From the NCBI GenBank assembly GCA_031835245.2, contig JAVKOQ020000036.1, forward strand, positions 62,001 to 126,000: a stretch of 64,000 bases of DNA, written 5' to 3'. The notes beneath the pieces were generated by a model. The model was not told the origin of the DNA, ran no database searches, and saw nothing but the letters and a program-made list of their open reading frames with translations. This DNA is from Balamuthia mandrillaris. Taxonomy: Eukaryota. Positions 1,941 to 51,705 of this stretch are shown here, piece after piece (positions within the stretch are counted from its first letter, which is position 1; every line of letters starts with the position of its first letter). Both the position numbers and the translations under genes were made by a program.

Positions 1941-2053
1941 CTTCGTCAACAAATACAAACTACCGAGACCGAAAACATAAACAATATATTTAAAGTTAAG
2001 AAAATAGTAACGAAAAAGCAAAACGTTGCGGTTGTTAAACTTGTTTTAGAAGG

Positions 2054-2977
2054 TTAGAAGAAGAAGGGGCGCAACAAGTCAGCAGAACTCTTGTCACCGC
2101 TTTCATGGTGTCCAAAGGAACCGCTGTCGTCGGTGCTGTCTTTGGAGTCATCCTTCCCGCCATGATGCTTGCCATCGCCCACGTCTCCTCCGTCGTGATG
2201 CTTACCGTCATCCACGTCTCCTCCATCGTGATGTTTGCCATCACCGATATCTCCTCCGTCATAACCATCATCCACATCTCCTCCATCGTAGCCATCGCTG
2301 ACATTGCCTCCGTCATAACCACCATCATAAACGTTGCCACCATCATAGACGTCCCCTCCGCAGTATCCGGGACCATAGACATCATCTCCGCCATCCTCAT
2401 AGTCGTCATAGTAATCGATGTTGCCACCATCATAGCCGTCATAGTCAACGTCTCCTCCATCGTAGTCCACGTTGCCTCCGTCGTACCGTCCGTCATAGAC
2501 ATCTCCACCGTCGTAGATATCGTCTCCGTCGTAAACATTACCTCCATCATAACGTCCATCATAGATGTCACCGCCATCATAGCCAACGTTGCCACCATCG
2601 TAGATGTTACCACCGTCGTAACCAATATTTCCTCCATCGTAACGTCCATCATAGATGTCACCACCGTCGTACACATCTCCGCCATCATATCCAAGGTTGC
2701 CGCCATTGTAGATGTTACCCCCGTCGTAACGTCCGTCATTGACATCTCCACCATCGTAGCCAATGTTGCCACCATCATAGATGTTGCCGCCATTGTAGAC
2801 GTCACCGCCATCATAACCATCGTAGTCGACATCTCCCCCGTCATAGGCAACGTTACCGCCATCATAGACATCACCTCCGTCATAGCGGCTGTCGTAGACG
2901 TCACCGCCGTCATAGCCTCCACAGAGGGCAACAGAAACTAGCGTCGCCAACAACAAAGCGATGAATGTCGGTCTCAT
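2054..2977 (-). CDS. Secreted YDGG repeat protein paralog, 307 aa, intronless
   Basis: Signal peptide MRPTFIALLLATLVSVALC, dozens of YDGG units, DGKHHDGG repeats and the same C-terminus LRPFFF. Confidence 0.88.
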   Translation of the reverse strand: MRPTFIALLLATLVSVALCGGYDGGDVYDSRYDGGDVYDGGNVAYDGGDVDYDGYDGGDVYNGGNIYDGGNIGYDGGDVNDGRYDGGNIYNGGNLGYDGGDVYDGGDIYDGRYDGGNIGYDGGNIYDGGNVGYDGGDIYDGRYDGGNVYDGDDIYDGGDVYDGRYDGGNVDYDGGDVDYDGYDGGNIDYYDDYEDGGDDVYGPGYCGGDVYDGGNVYDGGYDGGNVSDGYDGGDVDDGYDGGDIGDGKHHDGGDVDDGKHHDGGDVGDGKHHGGKDDSKDSTDDSGSFGHHESGDKSSADLLRPFFF

Positions 2978-3660
2978 GGTGCACGGTTTTCTGGTTTCTC
3001 TTCTCTCTGCTTAGTTTTGATTAGTTTGGTTTGGTTTGGCTTTGAAGTTGTTGTTCGTTGTTGTTTGTAGGTTTTATGAAAGAAACTATTTATGGACGGA
3101 GGGTCAGTGCGAAGAAACGAAAGTAATGATTCGTTGTTGTTCTCCCTCCATGAAATTCAACGAGCCAGAGTATCTTGTTCGTCGCTTTTTGTCCATTCTC
3201 CTTACTCTTATCTCATTGATATAGGGCGCGCAACTCTTCCCGAGAAACTTCCCAAGAGGCTATTCCTGAATGAGGTCATAATCAATCAATTATATGTGGG
3301 CTCTATACCGGCAGCCTCATTGCCTTTTTTTCAAACATACAATCCAATGAAAAATCAAAGCCATTTTCGGGCCTCATTAGGAATTTTAGGTATTCAAAAA
3401 ATCCGATGAATTCTTGGAATGGATATCATTGTCGACACGTAGTCGACATAAATGATCCTACACCGTCGACACGAGAGTCAGCTGGGATGGCTGCGAAATT
3501 TCGAAGAGAAAACATCGAAGGAGAAAGAAGCGACAGCTCTCTCTTCCAAAACTATCCAAGCCTCTCCTGTAACAGTGGTGTTTGTTTGAAAAAGAAAACA
3601 CCCCACACTACGTACTGCGTAGTCAGCATTGGACGTTGTGATAGTTGCTCCACTCCTTCC

Positions 3661-26807: not shown

Positions 26808-28579
26808 GCGTTCAGAAGTAAAATAGTGATTCCGGTTTGCTGATTATCTTCAGAAGGTTGACCTTCAGAAGAGGGAGCATGTTTCTCATCCTCGCAGCGA
26901 GAGAGAGAGAGAGAGAGAGAAGAGAAGAGAAGAGAAGAGAAGAGAAGAGAAGAGAAGAGAAGAGAAGAGAAGAGAAGAGAAGAGAAGAGAAGAAGAGAAG
27001 AGAAGAGAAGAGAAGAGAAGAGAAGAGAAGAGAAGAGAAGAGAAGAGAAGAGAAGAGAAGAGAAGAGAAGAGAAGAGAAGAGAAGAGAAGAGAAGAGAAG
27101 AGAAGAGAAGAGAAGAGAAGAGAACGATGAAGAGAAGAGAAGAGAAGAGAAGAGAAGAGAAGAGAAGAGAAGAGAAGAGAAGAGAAGAGAAGAGAAGAGA
27201 AGAGAAGAGAAGAGAACGATGAAGAGAAGAGAAGAGAAGAGAAGAGAAGAGAAGAGAAGAGAAGAGAAGAGAAGAGAAGAGAACGATGAAGAGAAGAGAA
27301 CGATGAAGAGAAGAGAACGATGAAGAGAAGAGAACGATGAAGAGAAGAGAAGAGAACGATGAAGAGAAGAGAACGATGAAGAGAAGAGAACGATGAAGAG
27401 AAGAGAAGAGAAAGAGAGAAAGAGAGAAAGAGAGAAAGAGAAAGGGGGATGAGAACCCTAGTGGACATGTTCAAAATAAGGGAAGTAACCAAGTCGTCCA
27501 AAACGCTAACAGCAACATCCTTATTGTCTTCATCCTGTCGGAACGGTTTGCTCTCCACCACAGCAGTCAAGCAGGGGAAAGCGCCCTGTTTAAATAGGGG
27601 CCGTGAGTTTGAGACGTCTTATAAAGTAATAAAGGGTAAAATACCTTCTTCAAGGCCTTGTTGAAAATGAACAGTATGTCCTTTTCTTCGACGCGTTCAC
27701 TGGAAAGACCCGACTATGGTATGGAAAGAGATTGTTTGTAAGGACAAAAACCACAACAGAGGACATTAAAAGAAAAAGTTACCGTGGCTATGAACTGTAA
27801 ATAAAGAGCCCACGCAAACATCACTGGTCCTTGAAAAAACGCTGGTGAAAAAAGAAAAGAAACAAGTTCAGCAAACAGAGGAAAGAAAGAATGGAAGAAA
27901 GGAAGAGAGAACCATTTCGCCACTTAGAAGTCAGTTTGCGAGTAAAATCAGAGATGAATCTTTTGTCGGTAAGAAGAGAAACAGCCGCAGAGGAGCGTGC
28001 AGAAAGAGAGGAGCCAGGAGAACTCGATCCTCCTCCAATTCCATCCTCATTTCGGGAATCCACCAACTCTCCTTGTCTCTCCACATCGAGGAAGCAAAGA
28101 ATGGTGATTAGCAACAGTTGCGTCACATGAAGCAAGTCCATGTCTGTCGGATTCTTTTTCAGTGCTGAACTGCACTTCTCATAAAGATCTATCAAAGCGA
28201 GGGCTTCCTCCGGAGGGATGACTACTTGATAATAAATAGAAAGCAGACAGGAAACGAGCAATACGCGTTCCTCAGCATAAAAGCCAATTCGCCGTTGTCG
28301 TTTTTCTTGTGCTGCGGTTGACGATGGAGCTTGCGCACCTTGAGCAGGAGCAGGCTCGTTTGTCTGCAATAAATATGAACGTGTGTCAGAGAATGAAAGA
28401 GCGACAGCAAAGAGGGCAGTGATACCAAAACGAGGTCAATGAGGCGTTTGGCAAGACCTTCGGCAATGAGCTCGTTGGTAAATTGAATGATCAACGCTCG
28501 TAAACCCTCGGATATGTCTGGATCTCCTCTTCCCTGATAACAACAATGATAGCAGTTTAAGTAAACTAATAGAAAGGAG

Positions 28580-28610
<31 letters not shown>

Positions 28611-29487
28611 GTTCGATAGTTTCCAACAACCACAAAAAGAGGCAGAGGAAATTTGATAGAAACCATCAAAGTGTGTTATTATTAACACATTTTGATTGAT
28701 CGCTTTTGCACAACAAACACGCCCGTGACCTATGGGTTTGTGTAAAATTGTTTTACACCAAGTCAAGGGTTCTAGCGTGTGCTCTTCTAGGGATGGAACT
28801 TGGGATGAATGAGAGCGAAGCGAACGAGAGGTTACCCGCAAGAGATTCAACAAGGAATGCAAAAGATGTTGCCGCTCAGCAAAGTAGATCAGTTCTGCTT
28901 TTGTTAGAACCTCCTCTGCCTCTAGTGCATAACTACCCAACTGTATCATAGAAGAAACACAACATAATATAGTGAGAGAGAGAGAGAGAGAGAGAGAGAA
29001 CAAAGAGCGAAGACAGAGTTGAAGACAAAGAGTGCGTTCAGATAAAAATAGTGATTCCGGTTTGCTTGCTTTCTTCAAAAGAGGCTTCATAGCACTTCAG
29101 AAGAGGGAGCATGTTTCTCATCTTTTGCAGAGAAGCGAAGAGTACGACTACAAACAGAGAACGAAAATGTTTTTTTTAAAAAAAGAGCATTACCTCTTCA
29201 TACGCAGACCGCAACAGCATAACGCTGGATATTTCGTTCAAGTTAAGGTCATCGCTCAACACAAGAGCCTATTTTGAAAACAAGAACATTTGTCAAATGA
29301 ATGAGAGGAAAAGAGAAAGCGAAAAGAATGAGAGAGAGAGTAGGTCTGCAAGATTCAGAAGTAAAATAGTGATTCCGGTTTGCTGAGTATCTTCAAAAGC
29401 AAAAAGACTTGCCTCAGAAGAGGGAGCATGTTTCTCATCACTTTTGCAGAGGGTAGACTAGCGAGAACTCCAAAGGAAAGAGAGGGA

Positions 29488-38463: not shown

Positions 38464-40880
38464 TTAACTGGCAGACTTTTGTTTCTTCTTCTTCTTGGTT
38501 GTCGTTTTCTTCTTTTTCTCCAGGGGCTCTCCCTCCACATCCATCAACTCGGTTTCTTTCTTCTGGATCCGCACCGGCTTCTCCTTCTCTCCACCCCTCC
38601 AGCTCTCCGTCACGTCATCCCCCAAGACCATCTTCTCCGCCCCATCCCCTTCCCTCTCCTTCTTTCTCTCCAAGGCCGGCAACTGCGTCTCGCACTCCGT
38701 CATGGCGTTCACGTCCAACGGCTGCATCAGCCCAAAGCATCCCGTCCCGCATTTGGGCACCTCGCCCAGCACGATGCTGGCCGAGGGAGAGCTGAGGTCG
38801 TCGTGGTCGCCAAACATGGCCGCGTGGCTCAAAAAGTTCATCGTCGTCTCGAAGCTCATCTTTTGCAGCGGCGAAGTGGAGGAGGAGATGCCGACGCGGC
38901 TGAAGGGCTTGAAGCGACCCTCAAAGGTCATGTAATCGGCAATCAGGGTGAGGTGACGAGGATCCACGGAGATGCCGTAGACGGCGAACACGCCGGCCAC
39001 TTCCAGGCAGATGGCGCGACGAGCGGCCTCCACGCCATAGGTATGAAGGATGGCGTAGATGTCATTGCAGTAGATGTCCTTGGTGATGATGCTGTCTTGG
39101 TACTCCCAAATCGACTTGAAGTTTACACCCTCTGTTAACAGTACCCACTTTTTGTGTTTGTTTTGATATTAGAAAAAGCGAAGAGAGAAAAGAGCAAAGA
39201 GAACGGAGAAACTTACGTCAGGAGTAACAGCCCCAGGGTAAGGAATAGGTGGGTCTTCCGGTTTGTTGACAAAGCATCGTTTAATGCCAGGCACATCGTG
39301 AATGACAAACTTGTTGCTGAGCTCCTCCATGATGGCAATCATGAGCAGCTTCTTGTCATCTGCCCTCACTTTGATGTCGAGGTCAAAAGTCACTTTGGTC
39401 TCATCAAAGTTGTAGTCCATCAACATCTCATCGCTGCCCAAAAGTCTCTTCACGCGAAGACCTCCTCCTTGAGAGCGCTTCAAGCCCGAACTCGAAGCCG
39501 CAGATCTTCTCGACTTGGTTCTCGATGCGGTTTGTGATTGCTTCATGAAAGCGTTCAACGCAGAGGAAGAGGCTTGTTTTTTGGCTTCTGCCTCTTCGTC
39601 CTCTGCCTCTTCGTCGTCATCGCCTTTCTTCAAACGTTCTCGTTGTTCTCGCTCTTGACGACGAATGGAGGCGGCTTCGTCCTCTTCGGCATCGTCGTAG
39701 CCCACTATGGCTCGTTTTCTCTCTCGCAGCTTGGAGGAGACGGCGTCATTGTCTTCGTCGTTGGCGGCCGCTCGAGTGGTGTCCACATCATCGTCGTCGG
39801 CAACGGCTGATTCGTCAAAGGCGGGTCGTTCTGGTCCTGATGGAACTCCCACTGTATAATGTGAGGAATGGATAAATAAGTTTAGATATTAGAAAGAAAG
39901 AAAGAAAAGAAGGAAAGAGAAGGGAGTACATACACTCCTTGTTCTTTTTCATTTTGAGCTTAGCTCGAACGGTGGAAATAACTTGAGGAATAAAGCGTTC
40001 CTAGATTCAACGAGAGAGTAAAGTTAGACTCAAAATAAAGAAGAGAAAGAGAGAGAGAGGTATTGAATTGGCAAGGAATAGTTTCAGAAGAACAGAAATC
40101 AAAAAATCAAACTCATCAATGACATTCAGGTAATGTGGGTAAGTTGAGTTTTTAGTCATCATAATAACTATCCCGCCGCCAACGCAGAGGACAAACAAAA
40201 CAAACGAAAAGACAACAGAATAAAAAGAAAGGTTACCTCCAAAATTTCGGCGAGACGCCAGAAAGATATTCTGTTTACGTCGGTGCCCCATTTCTTCTGC
40301 GGCTTCATCTGGAAGTGAATCTTATAGATACGTGAGCGAGACACCTCCGACCGAACTGACTCTGTGACAGTCAGCTGGTCCACCAGTTCCGCCAAAGGAA
40401 GTCTGTATAACTTGTCTGCAAGCATCTTTGCATCTATCCATTTAAAATGTTAGTAAATAACATACAAATCAAAACAACAAACAAAAACGAACCCGTTTCA
40501 GAACTGCCTTTCGGTAACGGCAAAGTCATAGAAGGCGTCTTGATATCTTTAGAAGCTGTCATCAGGATTTCCTTCAAACGAGGAATACCAAGGGTCACGT
40601 TGGCCTCTCCTCTGCCAGCCAAATGGAAGGTGTTCAGCGTCATCTGCGTAGAGGGTTCTCCGATGGACTGAGCGGCAAGCAGACCGACTGCCTCTCCGGC
40701 GTCCACTTGGCAGCGGCTGAAATAGAACTGCATCAAGTCGCGGAAAGCGCGTTGACTGGGTTTGTAGGTGGCAAAAGGCTTGCTCGGAGGTTCGTCTTTC
40801 TCTCTCAAAGTGCGATCTGGATTCTTTTTGATGTACTGTTTGTGTATAAAGAATGAACACATAATGAGAGAATAGAATAA

Positions 40881-40930
<50 letters not shown>

Positions 40931-43900
40931 AGAAAGGGAAGATGACATACGTCTTCCAAATCTTCAAGGAATCGCTCCGAAGTAACACCAAGATATCCTT
41001 CAGTGATGAATCTAGATTGAAGCTACAGAAAAAAAAGTAAGAAAACAAAATAAATAGATTTGAAAAACAAAAGAAAGAGCTTACAGTTTCTTGCTTATTG
41101 AGTTCAGGATCCTTGGCCCGTTTTCGAAGATACTTTCTGACGGGCTTGGAATCAAGGACCTGTTTAGCGGTGGGCAAATAGTGACGGCTGCCCAATGCTC
41201 TCGTGTTGATGGAGAGAAAGCCAAACTGCTTCTTATCCAAGAAAGCCGTCTTACAAACATCGATCGAATCTTCACCATAGCGAAACTGCGATAAAAAAGA
41301 TTAGGTTAAACGCAAGAAATAAGAGAGGAAGAAAAAAAAGAAAAGCGGGTAATTGAAAGGGCTCAGAAGAACAGAAATCAAAATGAAATATTTCATCAAT
41401 AGAACTCAGGTAATGTGGGTAAGTTCATTTGGTCATCATTGAATTGCCCAGTTGTTTTCATCAAACACCAAAAACAAAACAAAAAGAAGTACCTGAACAA
41501 CTGAATTATCACAATCTCGAACGGTTCCATCGTAGTGCACGCGCAAGTTCTCGAGATGCTTGATGAGACAACGTTGTAGGTAACCAGAACGACTAGTCTT
41601 TACGGCCGTATCGATAAGACCCTCCCTTCCGGCCATGCAATGGAAAAAGTATTCCTGTGGTCGGATGCCCGTCAAGAAGCGATCTTTGATGTAGCCTCCT
41701 GCTCTGGAAGTAGGGTCGTAGGCGTCAAAGGCCGGTAAAGTTTTACCGCTTGCCATGGCCGGACAACGTTTGCCTTCTAATTCTTGTTGACCTGTTAAAC
41801 GAAAGAAGAAGAAGAAACAATAGACAAGAGCAAAATATTAGTAAACACAACTAAAAAACGAAGACAAATAAAAAGGAGAAAGAAAGCGAAAAAGAAATTT
41901 GCAAGATTCAGAAGTAAAATAGTGATTCCGGTTTGCTGAGTATCTTCAAAAGCAGCAAATGGCTTCAGAAGAGGGAGCATGTTTCTCATCACTTTGCAAA
42001 TGAAAGAAGAACAAGACAAACGAGAAAGGCAAACTAGAAAGAGGGATGAACCTAGCAAGCAAGAGATCTGGGAAACGTTGACCATGCCTCCTTTGGCTCC
42101 GGTGAGGGTCATCATCTGGAGGTTGTTCTTGGGGAACAGTTTGAGCTGGCCATTGGGCACGCAAGCCTTGATGATGTCAGATGAGAAGGAATGGGTCATT
42201 CGCTTCATGACTCCATCCAACCCGTTTACTTCATCAGGATTGGCAGTTATGATGTCCTTCAATGTAGCCTTCAAGTCTATTCATGCAAACCAAAGAGAAG
42301 AAGTTTAGTAGTTTGGTCTACAAAAGAGATGTTCGATTGTTTTTCTTTGTGCTACGATGGCAAAAAGGATCAGTAGAACGAAAGTTATAATTTTATGTAT
42401 TTTATGGTCATGGATGGATTTACTCCCTCCTTATACCAATCATTCATCATCCTATCCTTTTTGATCCAAAGAGAGAGACGAGAGAGGAGGAGGAGAAGGG
42501 GAAGAAAAAAAAAGAGTAGCAAAGAATAACATAGAAGAGGGTGATGAAGAGTCGGTACCTGGCAAGTTACGCTCAGAACCGGCCTCCTTGCCGACGAACT
42601 TCTCTGCAACCTCTATACCTTTGTCATTCACCACAGACAACAATTTAAGTCTTTCTTGCTCAGCATGTGGCTATAAGCAAAGAAAAAGTTAAAAATTTTT
42701 CTTCAGAGGCAGGTAATAAGAGTAAAAGTACTAACAGTCAACAAAAGATCGTCCATGCCACAAGTAAAACCAGTAAATTGAAGGAACTGGGTGAACAGTC
42801 GACCGAGCGCGCTCAGCAATTGTCCCGCTTTAGTCATACCATAAAGCTCGTAACATGCCTTTGTTGTGTCGAAACAAATGTTTGTGAGTATAACTCAATT
42901 ACGATAAAAAGGAAGACAAAACAAAAGTACTCACATGAACGAGCCCGTAGGGGGATGCACCAAACTGGTTCTTGTCAAGAACACCTGTAAGCAGTTCATT
43001 GTCCCGAATGATTACCTTGCCCTCTTCTCTGTGCCCTCCCCACAACGTCTCCGGTGTTTTACACTTGCTGTCGAGATTGATTGGCGCCTCGTCCTTCAAC
43101 AGCACGTTCAACAAGTTGGTGATGATCTGCTTACCAGTCCATAGCCTTCTCGGCTTCCAAATGGCCGGTGGGACAGTGTCGATGACTACCTCAACCAGAG
43201 CTTTCTGAGTGGAGAGGTGTCGCCCAGCGCCGCTGCCAGAGGTAAAGTGATGGCAAGTGCTATAGAGGAACTGCTGGAATTCCTCTTTGGTGAAGAAAGT
43301 CTCTTTGGAGGTGATGAGTACGCCCATGACGACGTGATCTTGGATGAGACCACGAAGCGGCATGCCGTTCCTCGGCACCACGTACTGATTATCCGTCAGA
43401 GCAATGTTGTATGCCTCTGCTCGTGCCAACTCGTTCTGAGGAAAATGGACGTTCATCTCGTCTCCGTCGAAATCGGCGTTGTAGGTGTTACAGTTGGCGT
43501 AGTGCATACGAAGAGTCTTTTCAGTCTTGAGGATCTTGACCTTGTGCGCCATTATACTGGGCTTGTGAAGAGTGGGCTGACGGTTCATGAGCACAATATC
43601 TCCATCGCGGATGTGTCGATAAACCTTCTTAACACCGCCATTGGCGCGCACTGCGCGAGAGGACAAGTTGGAGACTGTACGTAACGTGTTGCTAACTGCT
43701 ATTCTGCTCTGTTTGTTGTCCTGTTTATTTCATTAGTTTTTGTGGCCTAAAGAAGTAGAATGCAGAGAGTAGAGAGAGAGAGAGAGAGGGAGAGAGAGAG
43801 AGGGAGAGAGGGAGAGGAAGAGGGAGAGATGGAGAAGACAAGTGAAAATCAGAAAGAGAAAAAGAAAGATACTTACGGCGCGAAGCATTATAAGATTGCC

Positions 43901-46454
43901 CCATTCATCTTCATAGGCGTTAGCTCCTGGATGCTTGTCCGGTCCGTTAATAACTGCTTGGCGCATTAACTTGTAGTTCCCTTCAGTTACAGGCTCCGGA
44001 TAAGTCAACTTCTTTGCAAAGTAGTTCGGAATCTGTTATAGAACAAGAACGAAAGAATGGTCAGAAAAATTCACGAGTCAACTACGAAGGAAACAAACAT
44101 AGTGAAAGAGAGGACTTACACCAATTTCATTCGTATCAATAAAGGGATCGGGCGAAATGACAGTACGAGCCGCATAGTTGACACGCTTGCCCATCATGTG
44201 CTTCCTAAATAGACCTTGCTTCTTCTCCAACAGCTGTTTAATGCCAGGCGAACTGTCAGAGGTCTTTGCCGTAGGAGTATTGTCTATCAAGTTGTTGATG
44301 GTGTATTGCAGCTCCGTCCATTTGGCAATTTGCTTTTGCAACACGTCGCCAGCCGAGGAGCCTTTGTCATCGCCGGCCTCTATTGATGCTTCTTTGCTTA
44401 AAGCTACGAGCTCGCGAGAGAGGGTGAGGGCTTTGGCCAGATGGACGTTTTGGGGATGCTCCACCGCTTGTTCTCCCAAGCGATTCAAAGGGCGAAAGCG
44501 GGTGGGGGCAACGCAAATAGCTTCCACGAAGAAGACCATCGGATCTGCTTCTCGGTGAGGAGGTAGACCACTCACTTTACATAGATGGAGGGGAAGAACG
44601 TTGAGTGTCAAGAAAAGGTATTAAGAGTAAGGAGGGTTGAGAAAAGGAAGAATCGCTATTGCAACATACCTCCACCCATCTTCACGGAACCCCAAACCAA
44701 ACGCATGATTTGATTTTCCTTCTCAAAGAGCTTAATGATGTGTGACATCACTTCAGTTGGGGGCATATACTTGTAGCCCGATGATTTGCTTGGAGCAGCA
44801 GCTTTTGTCGCAGTTTCCTCCTTGGTGGTGTTGCTCTTCGACAAAGAAGACAGAACGGCTGCCTCAGCGTCATCATACTCCTCCGTGGTTGGCTTTGTGG
44901 GTTCTTCTGTGTCGCTATCCTCGTCATCGTCGTCTTCGCTGTCCGAATCAGCTGTGGAGGACTTGTTGTTGCTGGGTCCTCCTTTCTCCATGATGTTGGG
45001 CATGATCTCCTTGGCTTTGCCTCCAGTCTTAAGCCGGTTGATCCGCTTGGAACTTTGGGAAAGGGGTTGTTTGAAGATTTTCACTTTTGTCTCTGAGCGT
45101 AATGCTGGACTCCGCCTATAGATTGTGTTGTTGGATACTTGCGTTAGCAATTATATTCAAAAATAAAGAAAGAAGAAAGTACTTTTCACAGTTTTCGCAG
45201 GACCTAGGAGGCGCTTTTAGCATAAAAGCGTCAATCGCTTGTGTGCGTAGCTGTTGTGTGAACATAACCTTCTCTTCAAAGAGATGTGTTGTGATGACTG
45301 TTTTCAACGAACATAACAAAAAAATAGGTCAAACATTGAACAGAACACAAGCACGAGAGAGAGAGAGAGCAAAGAAGAGGTGATGACAAAGAAAGATTCA
45401 GAAGAACAGAAATCAAACTCATCAATAAAGTTTGTTCAGGTAATGTGGGTAAGTTGAATTTTTTGGTCATCATATTGTTTCTACTTTATCACCTCCAGCA
45501 CGAACATAAACGAATAAAAAACCAAAAAATGAAGAAAAATACAAGAGATGGAGAGAGAGAAACGTACTTTGGTTGCTCTTCAAAAGCGCATTATACTCCT
45601 CTTCTTTTCTCTGGCAGTCCTCAATGGTTTGCCTCATGTACTCCTTAACCTCTGCCCTCCGCAGCTTCACGCTCTCCGGCAAGGAGGCATACTCCGGCTT
45701 ACTCTCCTTGCGGCGCAGCCGCTCCAGCTCAAAACGGCACCACGCCACATGGGCGCTGAGAGGGCGCAAGGAGAGGGCCTCTTCCACGCGCCCCGCGTCC
45801 AGCAGCGTCAAAAACTTGCTCAGCTGCAGCAGCTTTTGGGTATGCACGCGAAAGTGGTGGCAGTGGAAGCATTTGGAGCGGAGGAGACGCAGGAGCACGC
45901 TAAAGAGAATGGGGTTGTAGACCGGCACTGCCAGCTCTATGTGGCCCATATGGCCGGGACAGTCTCTCTCCGAGAGGCCGCATGTCACACAACTACACAA
46001 CGATAAAGACACCGAATCGGATGAGCAACGCGTGTAAAAAGTATAAAAACAGAAGAGAGAGAGAGAGAGAGAGAGAAAGAAAAATAAATCTGCAAGATTC
46101 AGAAGTAAAATAGTGATTCCGGTTTGCTGAGTATCTTCAAAAGCAACAGATGGCTTCAGAAGAGGGAGCATGTTTCTCATCACTTTGCAGAAAAAAAATC
46201 AAGAGCAAAAGAGAGCGATAGAAGAGGGCGATGAGCGAGCGAAAAAAAAAGCAAACAAAAAAATACCTGCCGAATTTGTCGAGCGGACCGAGAACGGGAT
46301 CGTAGAGGCCGTTCTCGACGGCGTTGCCGAGCACGTCGAGGGAGACAGGTTCGGTGATCTTCTTCACGCTGAGCCGACGGATTTCATCGGCGGTGTAAAA
46401 GCCGAACGCGGTGGAAACGATCTCCTTTCCGATGACGCGATTTTTCAGGCTCAT
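38464..46454 (-). CDS. RPA1: RNA polymerase I largest subunit, multi-exon; snoRNA host
   Basis: [107 protein letters not shown] and MSFETT (Pol I-type signatures). Confidence 0.95.
40078..40171 (-). ncRNA. Intronic box C/D snoRNA, family 2 (SNORD34/snR62-like, double guide)
   Basis: ATGATGA...AACTTACCCACATTAC-CTGA...TTGATGA...TGATTTCTGTTCTT-CTGA with terminal stem ATAGTT/AACTAT. Confidence 0.88.
41347..41449 (-). ncRNA. Intronic box C/D snoRNA, family 2
   Basis: Same boxes and both guides conserved; different flanking stem. Confidence 0.87.
41897..42001 (-). ncRNA. Intronic box C/D snoRNA, family 1
   Basis: Canonical boxes; terminal stem ATTTGCAA/TTGCAAAT, compensatory relative to the other copies. 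Confidence 0.88.
42362..42462 (-). ncRNA. Intronic box C/D snoRNA, SNORD59/snR54-like
   Basis: ATGATGA C box; guide AACTTTCGTTCT-A-CTGA complementary to conserved 18S AGAACGAAAGUU; terminal stem AAAAAGGAT/ATCCTTTTT. Confidence 0.85.
45393..45478 (-). ncRNA. Intronic box C/D snoRNA, family 2
   Basis: Same C, D', C' and D boxes and both guides. Confidence 0.87.
46089..46191 (-). ncRNA. Intronic box C/D snoRNA, family 1 (RPA1 first intron)
   Basis: Canonical boxes and stem TCTGCAA/TTGCAGA. Confidence 0.88.
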
Positions 46455-46716
46455 GGTGGCGGTAGTTGTGTGTGTGATTTTAAAAAAAATGATAATTATG
46501 CACAAAAAAAATAAATAGGTGAAAATAAATAAAGAGGGATGCGGGAAAGGACAAAGGAGCGAGGGATGGAATGTAATCTCCGGTCACTCACCCAAAGTCC
46601 TTTTACAAGCGAATAACGCTCCGCACGGTGTGTGTGTTTCGCTGTTGCAACAGTAAAAAAAAAAAGCGTTTCTTTGCTCTTTATTTCTTCTTTTCTTTTG
46701 CTTTGTGTTTTTTTTT

Positions 46717-46977
46717 GGGTAGACACCGAGTCGGAGATACGATAAGGGGAATATCCCCTGCTAAAGGCGTCTATACAGAACCTGAGCATTTGCTCTGGAC
46801 AAAATTTTCCCTCCCTGCGATGCTCGAGAACCGGTGTAATGACCCCTCAACCGCGGAGGAATTCTCGCCCATTTCTCATATTCCCCCTGCGCTTCGGATG
46901 GCTCCAGCCTTCATGCCGCCCGACCGCTGCCATCCGGACACATGGGATCCGGCTTGCTCCCCCACCAGTGTCCACAC
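46717..46977 (-). ncRNA. Unidentified GC-rich structured element, candidate ncRNA
   Basis: Minus-strand 5' GUGGACACUG pairs with 3' CGGUGUCUAC (G-U pairs favour this strand); several internal hairpins; AT-rich flanks. Confidence 0.4.
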
Positions 46978-47016
46978 GAAATATGTATTTTTTGTCGACG
47001 CAGAGGTCTTGCAAAC

Positions 47017-47024
47017 TATAAATA
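47017..47024 (+). promoter_or_regulatory. TATA-box-like TATAAATA in the RPA1/RPB2 divergent spacer
   Basis: Consensus match about 310 bp upstream of the RPB2 ATG. Confidence 0.35.
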
Positions 47025-47329
47025 GGGAAGCTTCCCACAACGAAAAAAATTCATTTGGTCTTTTTCTCTCTGCAAAGAAGAGAGAGAAGCAAAGCAAAAA
47101 GGGGGAAGAAGAAGCCAAGTCGACTCTCTCTCTCTCTCTCTCTTTCTTTGCTTTGTGTGTGTGTCCCATTTCTTCTCTTTTGTCTTTTCGGCCCTCAAAA
47201 GAGAAAAAAAAAAAACAAAAGAGTAGTGGTCAGATCATCATCATCATCAGGAAACAAAAAAACAAAAGTAGAGAAAGGGGGGAAACACACTCACTCAACT
47301 CACGCATACACAACCACACACGTCACACG

Positions 47330-50300
47330 ATGGCGATGGATCTTGATCCGACGCAAGCCCATGAATACATGGGTGATGAGGGTATGCTGCTTTTTTTGAC
47401 CCTTTAGTTTTTTCAATCACTCACTCACTGTCAAAATAACATTTATTCCACAGTGGACGAAATGAGGGAAGAGGAAGATGAAGAGGATGAGATCGAGCAG
47501 GAGGACACGTGGGCTGTGATCAGTGCATACTTTGAGGAGAAGGGTCTGGTCCGGCAGCAGCTGGACTCGTTCGACTCCTTCATCGTCTACACGCTGCAAG
47601 AGCTGATCGGCGAGACGCCTGACCTCGTTGTCAACCCTGAAGCTCAGTACAAGCCCGGACAAGTCGCACAAACCCAGGTTTGTGTTTTTTCTCACCTCGT
47701 CTCGCTCTTCTTTGCCTTGTTCTTCTCGCTTCTGTGGCCTTTCTTTTTTTTCTTTACGCTTCTCTTCCATAACTTTACTCCATTCTCCTTTCTGATGATG
47801 GACTGTTCTAACTTTCATCAAAACAACAGACCAGTCACATTATCCATTTCGGACAAATCTATCTCAGCAAACCGACCATCGAGGAGGCGGATGGCTCCAC
47901 CTTGCCTCTCTCTCCCAATGAGGCGCGCCTGCGTAACCTCACTTACGCTGCCCCTCTCTACGTGGACATCACGCGAACCACCCTCACCGTCGCCGGTGAT
48001 GCTGATGACGCCGACCAGGTGCAAAAACGGGAGGAAACCATTCGCACACACATCGGCAAAGTGCCAGTTATGTTGCGCTCCCAGTACTGCATGTTGTATG
48101 GCATGTCTGACAAAGAGCTCACGGAGTTGGGGGAATGTCCCTACGACCAGGGCGGCTACTTTGTCATCAACGGCGGTGAGAAGGTGCTGATTGCGCAGGA
48201 GAAGATGAGCCACAACCACGTCTATGTCTTCAAGAAGGCCCCTCCCTCCAAATACGCCTACGTGGCGGAGATTCGCTCCTGCCTCGAGACGGGCAACCGC
48301 CCCACCAGCACAATGTACGTCAAGATGTTGGCTAAGACTGGTGTGAAAGGCTCCACCGGACAAACCATCAAAGCCACCATCCCCTACATTCGCTCCGACG
48401 TGCCCATCATTGTAGTCTTTCGAGCCTTGAACTTTGTGGCTGACCGAGATATCCTGGAACACATCGTCTACGACCTCAACAACAACACAGACATGATGGA
48501 GCTACTGCGGCCATCTTTGGAAGAAGCCTTTGTCATCCAGGACCAGAACGTGGCGCTGGACTACATCGGTAAGCGAGGCACCACCGTTGGCGCCACCCGA
48601 GAGAAACGTATCAAGTACGCCAAAGAGATCCTTCAGAAGGAGATGTTGCCACACGTCGGTATCAACCCCTTTTGCGAGACCAAGAAGGCCTACTTCTTTG
48701 GCTACATGATCCATCGCCTCTTGTTGGCCGCTTTGGGCAGGCGGCCGCTCGACGATCGAGACCACTACGGCAACAAACGGTTGGACCTGGCAGGTCCGCT
48801 GTTGGCCACGCTTTTTAGGCAGCTGTTCAAGAAGCTGACCAAGGACGTGCGCATCATGCTGCAGAAGGAGGTGGACAGAGGCAGCGATTTCAGCATCTCT
48901 AAGGCTGTTCGGCATCATACCATGTACGATTCTTTCTTTCTCGTTCCTTTCTCTTTCTGCTTTCTTGTTCTTTCTCCTTCGTTTTATTATTCTCATTCTT
49001 CTAACAAACCGAACGATAACAGCACAAACGGATTGAAGTACTCCTTAGCAACGGGCAATTGGGCTTCCACCCGCTCCGCCTCCGCCAAGTCGGGCGTCTC
49101 CCAGGTGCTGAATCGTCTTACTTTCGCCTCCACCCTCTCCCATTTGCGTCGCCTCAACACACCGATCGGACGGGAGGGCAAGCTGGCCAAGCCACGTCAG
49201 CTCCACAATACCCACTGGGGCATGGTCTGCCCAGCAGAGACGCCCGAGGGGCAAGCCTGTGGTCTCGTCAAGAATCTCGCCCTCATGGCTTACATTTCCG
49301 TCGGCTCCCCTTCGGCTCCTATTCTGGAGTTTCTCGAGGAGTGGGAGACAGAGAATTTGGAGGAGATTGGACCGTCTAACATTGGCGAGTCCAACTCTAC
49401 AAAGGTATTCGTGAACGGCGCGTGGATTGGCATCAATCGACAGCCACGTCGTCTGGTGAGTATCCTGCAGTCGTTGCGGCGCTGCCTGGACGTCAGTGCT
49501 GAGGTCAGCGTGGTGAGAGATATAAGGGAACAGGAGCTGCGGCTCTACACAGACGCTGGGCGGTGTTGCAGGCCGTTGTTTGTGGTGGAGAATCAGAGGC
49601 TCATGCTGAAGCGATCACATATCGAGGAGTTGCAAAAGGTATCTTCTTGTTTCTTTTCTCTTTTTCTCTCTTTTTTATTTTGAGTTTATTAACACTCTTG
49701 GAACAAAAGTTCAATGAAGATGAACGAGAATTCGGATGGACCCAACTGGTAGCCGGCGGTTTCGTGGAATACATCGACACCGAAGAAGAAGAAACCGTCA
49801 TGATTGCCATGACCATCAACGATCTCCGTAACTCCCGCGCCCTTCAACAACAAAGCGCAAGTGGAGGTGGACATAGCGAAGCCTATTGTCACACTTACAC
49901 GCACTGCGAGATTCATCCTTCGATGATTTTGGGCATTTGTGCCTCCATCATTCCCTTTCCCGACCACAACCAGTCCCCTAGGAACACCTATCAGAGCGCT
50001 ATGGGCAAGCAGGCCATGGGCGTCTATGCCACGAATTTCCAGTTCCGCATGGACACGATGGCGCTGGTGCTGTGGTATCCCCAGAAGCCGCTTATCACGA
50101 CACACGCTATGGAGCACTTGCATTTCAGGAAATTGCCCTCGGGAGAGAATGCTATAGTAGCAATAGCGTGCTACAGCGGTTACAATCAGGAGGACTCGGT
50201 GATTATGAACCAAAGTGCGATTGATAGAGGATTGTTTAGATCGACGGTTTATCGGGCTTATACTGAGTCCGAGAAACGTGGAGTACGATTCTTCTTTCTC

Positions 50301-51438
50301 TCTCCTTCATTTATAAATTCTGACCAACGTTATCGACAACAGATAATGTCAGCAACTGAAGAGTTTGGCATTCCGGTCAGAGACGACACAGTTGGCATGA
50401 AGCACGGCTCCTATGACAAACTCGAGGAGGACGGCCTGGTCGCTCCCGGCACTCGTATGTCCGGCGATGACGTTCTCATCGGCAAGACCACTCCGTTGCC
50501 CGCTCAGGAAGATGAGCAACGCACACAAAAGTTTAGCAAGAAGGACACGAGCACCTGTCTGCGTAGCGCGGAGACGGGCATCGTGGACAAGGTCATGATC
50601 ACCACCAATGCTGATGGCTATAGATTCACAAAGATTCGGTACGCTTTTTTTTCCTCTGTTTTTTTTGTTTCTTCCTATCTTTCTTTTCGTTTTTTTCTCT
50701 TTTTCTGATTCATTTCGAACAATAGAATGCGTTCAATGAGAACTCCTCAAATCGGAGACAAGTTCAGCAGTCGTCACGGCCAAAAGGGTACCATCGGTAT
50801 GACCTACCGTCAGGAGGACATGCCTTGGACGGTCGAGGGCATTACTCCCGACATCATCGTCAACCCACACGCCATTCCCAGTCGTATGACCATCGGCCAG
50901 CTGATCGAGTGCTTGATGGGCAAAGTCTCCGCCACGACGGGCGAGGAGGGAGACGCCACGCCGTTCACGGATGTGACGGTGGAGAGCATCTCGCAGGCGC
51001 TGCATCGCTGCGGCTATCAGATGCGGGGCAATGAGGTCATGTACAATGGACATACGGGACGGAAGCTGGAGGCGCAGATATTTATTGGCCCGACGTATTA
51101 TCAGAGGTTGAAGCACATGGTCGATGACAAGGTCTGCTAGCACACTTTTTTTTGTTCTCTCTCTCTTTCTCTCTCTCTCTCTCTTTCACTCTTCGCTTTA
51201 CTAACAGACAAACACAACATCAGATTCATTCGAGAGCGAGAGGACCGGTGCAGATCCTGACGAGGCAGCCGGTGGAGGGAAGAAGCAGAGATGGTGGTCT
51301 TCGTTTCGGAGAGATGGAGCGCGATTGTATGATTTCCCATGGTGCTGCTCAATTCTTGAAGGTTCGTGTTTTTCTTATCTTTCTTTTTCTCTTCTTGCAT
51401 TCTCTTTTTTTAATATTGTATTTTCTTCCTTTCAATTA

Positions 51439-51485
<47 letters not shown>

Positions 51486-51705
51486 AAATCATTAGGAACG
51501 GTTATACGATCAATCGGATGCTTATCGCGTGCATGTGTGCAATTTATGTGGCTTGATGGCCATCGCAAACCTGAGGAAAGGCACCTTTGAGTGCCGTCGA
51601 TGCCGCAACAAGACGCAGATCTCGCAAGTGCACATCCCCTACGCCTGTAAACTTTTGTTCCACGAGCTCATGAGCATGAGCATCGCCCCTCGCATGATAG
51701 TCTGA
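47330..51705 (+). CDS. RPB2: RNA polymerase II second-largest subunit, multi-exon
   Basis: [74 protein letters not shown] and [16 protein letters not shown]. Confidence 0.96.

What the first reader, a model, noticed from the sequence alone, without database searches (positions are those of the whole stretch)
38464..46454. RNA polymerase I largest-subunit gene hosts six rRNA-methylation guide snoRNAs
Seen: six RPA1 introns each hold one C/D snoRNA (two of family 1, three of family 2, one SNORD59-like). No C/D element was found in the neighbouring RPB2 introns. Inference: synthesis of the enzyme that makes pre-rRNA is physically coupled to synthesis of the guides that modify it.
Basis: partly seen in the sequence, partly recalled or inferred. 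Interest (0 to 1): 0.75.

Follow-up and report, generated by a model that had tools for sequence, protein, structure and literature searches.

The report
Six guide snoRNAs inside RPA1 introns
In the amoeba Balamuthia, six introns of the gene for the largest subunit of the enzyme that makes ribosomal RNA each carry a small guide RNA predicted to mark ribosomal RNA with methyl groups; one of these guides also sits in a nearby unrelated gene, so this is likely an ordinary case of guide RNAs spreading through introns rather than a special coupling.

Summary
Observation confirmed. The gene is Balamuthia mandrillaris RPA1 (17 introns; 1842/1842 residues match the public protein). Introns 1, 2, 9, 10, 11 and 15, the only ones over 200 nt, each hold one sense-strand box C/D element: two of family 1, three of family 2, one snR54/SNORD59-like. 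All six introns are spliced in RNA data. Family-1 RNA piles up inside its intron as short inserts, and the snR54-like element shows a weaker pile-up. On other eukaryotes' rRNA, family 1 pairs at the SNORD100 site (human 18S G436) and the single element at the snR54/SNORD59 site. Family 2 pairs at a large-subunit adenosine missing from the yeast, plant and Dictyostelium tables read, and carries an invariant second element with no target found. Co-transcription is likely, but family 1 has three more copies in introns of the NUP205 gene about 9-12 kb away, at least one apparently expressed, and these are more diverged than the RPA1 pair. This fits known intron-to-intron snoRNA duplication among housekeeping genes. 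I found no earlier report of RPA1 as a host, and Dictyostelium's guides are almost all intergenic. The scan's own notes held no earlier finding on this or look-alike DNA.

The parts
38464..46454 (-). RPA1 (RNA polymerase I largest subunit) coding region, 18 exons, 17 introns, 1842 aa
46099..46183 (-). F1a: family-1 box C/D snoRNA in RPA1 intron 1 (45993-46266); D' guide predicted for the SSU G equivalent to human Gm436 (SNORD100/snoR30 site), plus a conserved 8-nt block complementary to the rRNA just upstream
   Evidence: 28 of 52 family-1 reads carry its letters
45398..45473 (-). F2a: family-2 box C/D snoRNA in RPA1 intron 2 (45298-45567); D guide predicted for an LSU A 34 nt 3' of the snR68 site; invariant D' element without a target found
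42370..42450 (-). S59: snR54/SNORD59-like box C/D snoRNA in RPA1 intron 9 (42277-42558); 13-bp guide before box D for the SSU A equivalent to yeast Am974 / human Am1031; 9-bp terminal stem
   Evidence: read pile-up
41908..41992 (-). F1b: family-1 snoRNA in RPA1 intron 10 (41792-42051); 2 differences from F1a between the boxes
   Evidence: 14 of 52 family-1 reads carry its letter
41363..41439 (-). F2b: family-2 snoRNA in RPA1 intron 11 (41286-41492)
   Evidence: low read depth (about 1.5) in 1 of 3 RNA runs
40084..40162 (-). F2c: family-2 snoRNA in RPA1 intron 15 (40001-40236); 9-bp terminal stem
29355..29441 (-). F1c: family-1 copy in an intron of the NUP205/Nup192 gene (intron limits read from sequence, not RNA-checked)
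   Evidence: 10 of 52 family-1 reads carry its letter
29038..29124 (-). F1d: diverged family-1 copy in the next NUP205 intron; box C reads AAGATGA
26812..26892 (-). F1e: diverged family-1 copy in a long repeat-rich NUP205 intron; box C reads AGGATGA
47330..51705 (+). RPB2 gene, head-to-head with RPA1; 8 modelled introns of 60-146 nt, none with a C/D pair (control)

Best explanation
RPA1 carries six intronic box C/D snoRNA genes that are likely cut out of its spliced introns and are predicted to guide ribose methylation of rRNA, and they likely sit there because snoRNA copies spread from intron to intron among neighbouring, constantly expressed genes rather than through a link special to Pol I. 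Shown: the elements, their sense orientation, splicing of all six host introns, short RNA from family 1 and more weakly from S59, conserved boxes and guides, and three more family-1 copies in NUP205. Inferred from the known pathway: Pol II transcribes RPA1, Snu13/Nop58/Nop56/fibrillarin assemble on the C/D kink-turn, the intron is released and trimmed to the terminal stem, and the base opposite the fifth nucleotide before box D or D' is methylated. Predicted sites: the human 18S G436 equivalent (family 1, helped by a second 8-9 bp pairing just upstream), the yeast 18S A974 equivalent (S59), and an LSU A 34 nt 3' of yeast A2640 (family 2). Several copies likely raise guide dose from modestly expressed hosts.
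For: Six of six introns of 207-282 nt hold one element and none of the eleven of 59-156 nt does. Boxes and guides are invariant among paralogues while spacers drift: family-1 pairwise identity 67-94%, family-2 63-70%, flanks included. Guide pairing on eukaryotic rRNA (loci; three confirmed by Rfam): S59 13 bp, 0 of 40 shuffles as good; family-2 D guide 13 bp, 0 of 40; family-1 D' guide 1 of 40; family-1 second block 1 of 1000 (loci were chosen by this pattern, so partly circular). RNA: the 66-nt bin inside F1b has depth 27, 13.6 and 5.0 in three runs against 0-1.5 in the flanking intron bins; inserts run from nt 5-8 to nt 65-67 of the 85-nt element and then into adapter. The 52 reads split exactly into 28 F1a-type, 14 F1b-type and 10 F1c-type letters. 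Contigs of a divergent strain show no listed change inside F1b or S59 but many in the flanks. Mobility: F1a/F1b 94% alike, 88% to the NUP205 copy F1c, 67-74% to F1d and F1e. Literature: cis- and trans-duplication (PMC2653536), constrained drift (PMC3511168), nucleoporin and RNA-polymerase-subunit hosts.
Against: Six guides in one gene against three in NUP205 and none found by my scans in the other genes of the window is more than even spread would give, and family 2 and S59 are confined to RPA1 within this window. Ribosome-biogenesis hosts are enriched and comparatively stable in vertebrates (PMC13736004), so selection for this host is not excluded. Balamuthia's own rRNA was not available, so all targets are read on other eukaryotes' rRNA. 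For family 1 a G.U-rich site near SSU 1105 scored slightly better (-21.1) than the chosen site (-20.2) in 2 of 3 rRNAs. No element reaches an Rfam gathering score. Family-2 expression evidence is thin. Reads are few, from three runs of one study, and copies outside the window could contribute.
Confidence: 0.72

Rival explanations
1. Selected coupling: RPA1 is a preferred host because tying guide output to RPA1 transcription matches methylation capacity to pre-rRNA synthesis.
For: Three unrelated rRNA guide families share this one gene; 42 of 52 family-1 reads carry RPA1-copy letters; ribosome-biogenesis genes are 3.45-fold enriched as hosts in human and often carry four or more snoRNAs (PMC13736004); 33% of intronic hosts in Ostreococcus are ribosome-biogenesis genes (PMC7671301).
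Against: The same guide is made from NUP205; only three target sites of the dozens a ribosome needs are covered; RPA1 was not found among the 1,093 rows of ancient host genes from 44 genomes, whereas RPB2, RPC3 and four nucleoporins were; host and snoRNA levels correlate poorly in the papers read.
Confidence: 0.2
2. The snoRNAs are transcribed on their own (Pol III or Pol II units nested in the introns).
For: Dictyostelium C/D snoRNAs are independent genes in 46 of 47 cases (PMC8817022); T-runs follow box D in 5 of 6 introns.
Against: All nine copies in the window are on the host's sense strand; no TATA, A-box or B-box match upstream within the six introns; spacing to splice sites is regular; T-runs are common in these pyrimidine-rich introns.
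Confidence: 0.04
3. Some copies, chiefly of family 2, are silent or redundant leftovers, or guide a non-rRNA target.
For: F2b had reads in only 1 of 3 runs; F2a and F2c were seen only at coarse resolution; the invariant 16-nt D' element has no rRNA match better than shuffles (38 of 40 as good).
Against: All four boxes and both antisense blocks are invariant across three copies that are otherwise 63-70% alike, each with a flanking stem of different sequence.
Confidence: 0.04

Closest known systems
Multi-snoRNA ribosome-biogenesis host genes of vertebrates and their cis-/trans-duplicated paralogues (PMC13736004, PMC2653536; passages read)
   Same: One snoRNA per intron, sense strand, several paralogues in different introns of one protein-coding gene, further copies in another host.
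   Different: The host is the Pol I largest subunit, which I did not find listed as a host; the organism is a single-celled amoebozoan with short introns.
SNORD100/HBII-429 (human 18S Gm436) and Arabidopsis snoR30 (Gm392)
   Same: Family-1 D' guide pairs at the same site with the same register; human HBII-429 also has extra base-pairing upstream (PMC3116282).
   Different: Rfam score about 22 bits against a gathering score of 58; the extra pairing here is directly adjacent to the guide duplex, over the stretch that human HBII-202 uses as its guide; the site is not in the yeast or Dictyostelium tables.
snR54 (yeast Am974) / SNORD59 (human Am1031) / plant snoR59
   Same: 13-bp guide with the same target adenosine.
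   Different: The guide precedes the terminal box D here, whereas yeast snR54 uses box D'; no clear C'/D' pair; 26.8 bits against a gathering score of 50.
Dictyostelium discoideum box C/D snoRNAs (PMC8817022; passages and section 20 read)
   Same: Amoebozoan box C/D guides of rRNA methylation.
   Different: 46 of 47 are intergenic there; none of the three sites predicted here has a counterpart in its 49-site table.
snR68 / snoR68Y (LSU Am2640)
   Same: Neighbouring region of the LSU rRNA.
   Different: Not the same guide: snR68 pairs 34 nt upstream of the family-2 site.

Membership tests
Box C/D snoRNA | Terminal box C (RUGAUGA) and box D (CUGA) 60-100 nt apart | tested here: met
   All six RPA1 elements canonical, 76-85 nt; shuffle control
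Box C/D snoRNA | Terminal or flanking stem closing the C/D motif | tested here: met
   Flank duplexes of -7.9 to -22.5 kcal/mol for the six; no shuffle control was run on these
Box C/D snoRNA | Internal D'/C' motif | tested here: inconclusive
   Present in families 1 and 2 (weak covariation in the family-1 inner stem); not recognisable in S59
Box C/D snoRNA | 10-21 nt antisense element directly before D or D' | tested here: met
   10-13 bp with conserved eukaryotic rRNA for all three families; Balamuthia's own rRNA not available
Box C/D snoRNA | Accumulates as a discrete small RNA | tested here: inconclusive
   Clear for family 1, moderate for S59, thin for family 2; ends not mapped
Box C/D snoRNA | Binds Snu13/Nop56/Nop58/fibrillarin and directs 2'-O-methylation | not testable with these tools
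   Inferred from the known pathway
Intronic (host-processed) snoRNA | Sense strand of a spliced intron, one per intron, clear of splice signals | tested here: met
Intronic (host-processed) snoRNA | Uncapped, production depends on host transcription and splicing | not testable with these tools
   Only the absence of promoter-like matches was checked
SNORD100 / snoR30 (RF00609) | Rfam gathering score | tested here: not met
   22.1 and 21.4 bits against 58; works like SNORD100 by target, not filed as an Rfam member
SNORD100 / snoR30 (RF00609) | D' guide for SSU G436/G392 | tested here: met
snR54 / SNORD59 (clan CL00065) | Guide for SSU A974/A1031 | tested here: met
snR54 / SNORD59 (clan CL00065) | Rfam gathering score and guide at box D' | tested here: not met
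   26.8 bits against 50; guide is at the terminal box D
snR68 / snoR68Y | Guide for LSU A2640 | tested here: not met
   Family-2 site lies 34 nt downstream

The most novel reading that the evidence does not exclude
RPA1 is a selected snoRNA hub in this amoeba lineage, so that Pol I supply and guide supply rise and fall together, and family 2 is a new two-armed guide: one arm writes a ribose methylation unknown in model organisms, the other, invariant in three copies and resembling the 5'-splice-site-binding end of U1 (recalled resemblance, untested), acts on a non-rRNA target.
Probability: 0.12. Interest if true: 0.68.

Novelty: new member of a known kind. Interest (0 to 1): 0.38.

Why it matters
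It adds the Pol I catalytic subunit gene to the known snoRNA hosts and shows animal-style one-per-intron hosting in an amoebozoan, where the studied model (Dictyostelium) uses independent genes. That suggests intron hosting varies within Amoebozoa. One guide present in both RPA1 and NUP205, with copies that reads can tell apart, is a natural test of selected co-expression against drift. Family 2 predicts an rRNA methylation not listed in the tables read. None of this is a new mechanism.

Tried and rejected
No whole genome is held, so no genome-wide host survey and no Balamuthia rRNA. Rfam at gathering score: 0 hits in the window. I first took family 2 for snR68; the yeast alignment in the supplement of PMC3116282 showed a different site and I dropped the name. 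Rfam's SNORD59 and SNORD37 matches to family 2 (E 0.8, 1.4) were rejected because the guides do not pair at those families' sites. Family-2 D' element: no rRNA target beyond shuffles; extra pairing next to its own LSU site not significant (139 and 127 of 1000 shuffles); an 8-bp match to 5.8S rRNA in 2 loci is too short; no other match within 3 mismatches in the window. Family-1 D-adjacent stretch: no target (19 of 40 shuffles). Viral-contig scan: 6 loci, the 4 checked held no rRNA. Genome-contig scan for the family-1 guide: 38 prokaryotic matches, taken as chance and not examined further. The one metagenome scan went to rRNA, so RPA1 introns of other species were not examined. The run search listed no indexed holder on record as RNA; raw-read runs of the same species label were laid instead. 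One search used a misregistered structure and is disregarded; one search is the corrected one. The fungal snoRNAome main text held none of the positions searched; its supplements were not searched. Supplements of the Balamuthia preprint were not seen and may list annotated snoRNAs.
Full report
The gene. Joints in RNA reads and contigs gave 14 introns between 39148 and 46266, all CT..AC on the + strand. Three more were placed by frame. The model has 18 exons, 17 GT-AG introns and 1842 codons, with the NADFDGD motif at residue 676 (motif recalled). It equals protein P0001 at 1842 of 1842 residues, which its source names as a DNA-directed RNA polymerase subunit of Balamuthia mandrillaris. Homologues whose names give a class say RPA1, RPA190 or Nuc1, and the exons hit Pfam RNA_pol_Rpb1 domains 1-5.

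The elements. These are the six introns of 207-282 nt; the other eleven are 59-156 nt. In 1000 dinucleotide shuffles of the 17 introns, none gave more than one such intron. Box C starts 53-108 nt after the 5' splice site and box D ends 77-116 nt before the 3' splice site. Each element has a flanking stem. Rfam gave nothing at gathering score and weak C/D matches at E 0.7-9.8. The eight modelled RPB2 introns (60-146 nt, not RNA-checked) hold no C/D pair, but most are too short for one with flanks, so this control is weak.

What the finding leaves out. Family 1 has five copies in the window, not two. Three lie at 29355-29441, 29038-29124 and 26812-26892, in introns of a minus-strand gene whose exons hit Pfam Nup192. 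The RPA1 pair is 94% alike over the alignment, 88% to the first NUP205 copy and 68-74% to the other two; the NUP205 copies are 67-71% alike among themselves. The deeper divergence lies in NUP205, which fits older residence there and later spread into RPA1, although gene conversion between the RPA1 copies would look the same. The three family-2 copies are 63-70% alike with invariant boxes and antisense blocks.

Targets. Balamuthia rRNA was not available. I fetched 99 metagenome loci with a family-1-derived pattern; the three checked are complete eukaryotic rDNA. Family 1: the D' guide pairs 10-13 bp and points at SSU position 389 of L007, the site of human Gm436 and plant Gm392 (PMC3116282 supplement; PMC11542601 table). 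A second invariant 8-nt block pairs directly upstream (1 of 1000 shuffles). Because the loci were chosen with this pattern, the match is partly built in; the independent points are the Rfam identity of the loci and the agreement with the known site. A G.U-rich alternative near SSU 1105 scored -21.1 against -20.2 in two of three rRNAs. S59: 13 bp in 31 matches (one locus counted twice) among the 99 loci, many of which do not reach the site; 0 of 40 shuffles did as well. The target is SSU A979 of L007, equal to yeast Am974 (snR54) and human Am1031. Family 2: the D guide pairs 13 bp in the LSU in 5 of the 8 loci long enough to test, 0 of 40 shuffles. The site is 34 nt 3' of the snR68 site, about yeast 2674, in the helix-84 region (helix name recalled). 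It is not in the yeast list, the plant table or the Dictyostelium table; the human column of the plant table lists only shared sites, so human was not fully checked. The invariant 16-nt D' element has no target that beat shuffles.

Expression. Three raw RNA runs of one study, 3-5% of each read, were laid at 66-nt resolution on 41000-42950. The bin inside F1b has depth 27, 13.6 and 5.0, against 0-1.5 in neighbouring intron bins and up to 8.5 and 13.7 in nearby exon bins of the two deeper runs. Inserts begin at nt 5-8 and end at nt 65-67 of the element and run into adapter, as expected of a small RNA and not of a retained intron. Three diagnostic letters split the 52 reads into 28 of RPA1 intron 1 type, 14 of RPA1 intron 10 type and 10 of the first NUP205 copy's type; mates count separately, and copies outside the window or strain differences could blur this. 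S59 bins reach 5.4-10.2 in one run, 2.6-4.2 in a second and 0 in the third, against 2.1 and 0.3 in the flank. F2b had about 1.5 in one run and 0 in two. Contigs of a divergent strain show no listed change inside F1b or S59, while the flanks carry many.

Mechanism. Shown: position, orientation, splicing, paralogy, small RNA for family 1. Inferred from the known C/D pathway: assembly on the kink-turn, release from the excised intron, trimming, and methylation opposite the fifth base before box D or D'. No TATA, A-box or B-box match lies upstream within the six introns, so co-transcription with RPA1 is the likely source. Whether it is selected is open, and the NUP205 copies speak against anything exclusive.

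Comparison. Intronic snoRNAs move among broadly expressed genes, and their location is not ancestral (PMC3511168, passages). Duplication into other introns of the same gene or into another host is documented (PMC2653536, passages). In human, ribosome-biogenesis genes are 3.45-fold enriched as hosts and often carry four or more snoRNAs, but show the lowest snoRNA-host correlation, median 0.13 (PMC13736004, abstract and passages). Ostreococcus has 72 intronic snoRNAs, two in a nucleoporin gene, with levels unrelated to host mRNA (PMC7671301, passages and supplement rows). The table of ancient hosts from 44 genomes lists RPB2, RPC3, POLR2K and four nucleoporins, but no RPA1 under the terms searched (the yeast gene id was recalled). 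Full-text searches found no report of RPA1/POLR1A as a host or of Balamuthia or Acanthamoeba snoRNAs (search listings only); a Balamuthia preprint does not contain the word snoRNA in its main text (supplements not seen). In Dictyostelium 46 of 47 C/D snoRNAs are intergenic (PMC8817022).

Verdict. A real, expressed and tidy example of a known arrangement. New details: the host gene, intron hosting in an amoebozoan, and a family-2 guide for an unlisted site with an unexplained second arm. New member of a known kind; interest 0.38.

Noticed in passing
window 46454-47330: RPA1 (Pol I largest subunit) and RPB2 (Pol II second subunit) lie head-to-head with about 875 nt between their start codons, so they may share a promoter region.
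   Followed up: no
window 46715-47015: GC-rich 300-nt stretch between RPA1 and RPB2; the minus strand folds at z -2.7 (1 of 100 shuffles as good), the plus strand at z -1.5; no credible Rfam match. Possibly an unannotated RNA or UTR structure.
   Followed up: partly
window 42345-42456: Four reads in one RNA run go back 112 nt, joining a point about 25 nt after box D of S59 to just before box C, with 4 nt of microhomology; contigs of another strain show no duplication there. A circular or template-switched precursor; perhaps only two molecules.
   Followed up: partly
window 45440-45455, 41410-41425, 40130-40145: The invariant family-2 D' element includes a 7-mer like the 5' end of U1 snRNA (recalled), i.e. 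complementary to a 5' splice-site consensus; no target in the window.
   Followed up: partly
window 46234 and 42547 (minus strand): The upstream flanks of RPA1 introns 1 and 9, which host unrelated snoRNAs, share a 14-mer with one mismatch found nowhere else in the window at that level; possibly a trace of shared origin of the introns.
   Followed up: partly
window 41900-41995: In the divergent-strain contigs this stretch is one record of about double depth with no difference from F1b, which may mean that two family-1 copies are identical in that strain, as concerted evolution would give.
   Followed up: no
window 26900-27450: About 550 nt of degenerate pyrimidine/purine short-unit repeat inside the NUP205 intron that holds copy F1e.
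   Followed up: no
window 2050-3010: An ORF region built of short Gly-Asp-Tyr-Val-rich repeats on the minus strand with no Pfam match.
   Followed up: no
window 43923-43954: A 32-nt piece of an RPA1 exon is shared with another transcript in RNA reads and contigs (loose ends on both sides), probably a paralogous polymerase subunit.
   Followed up: no
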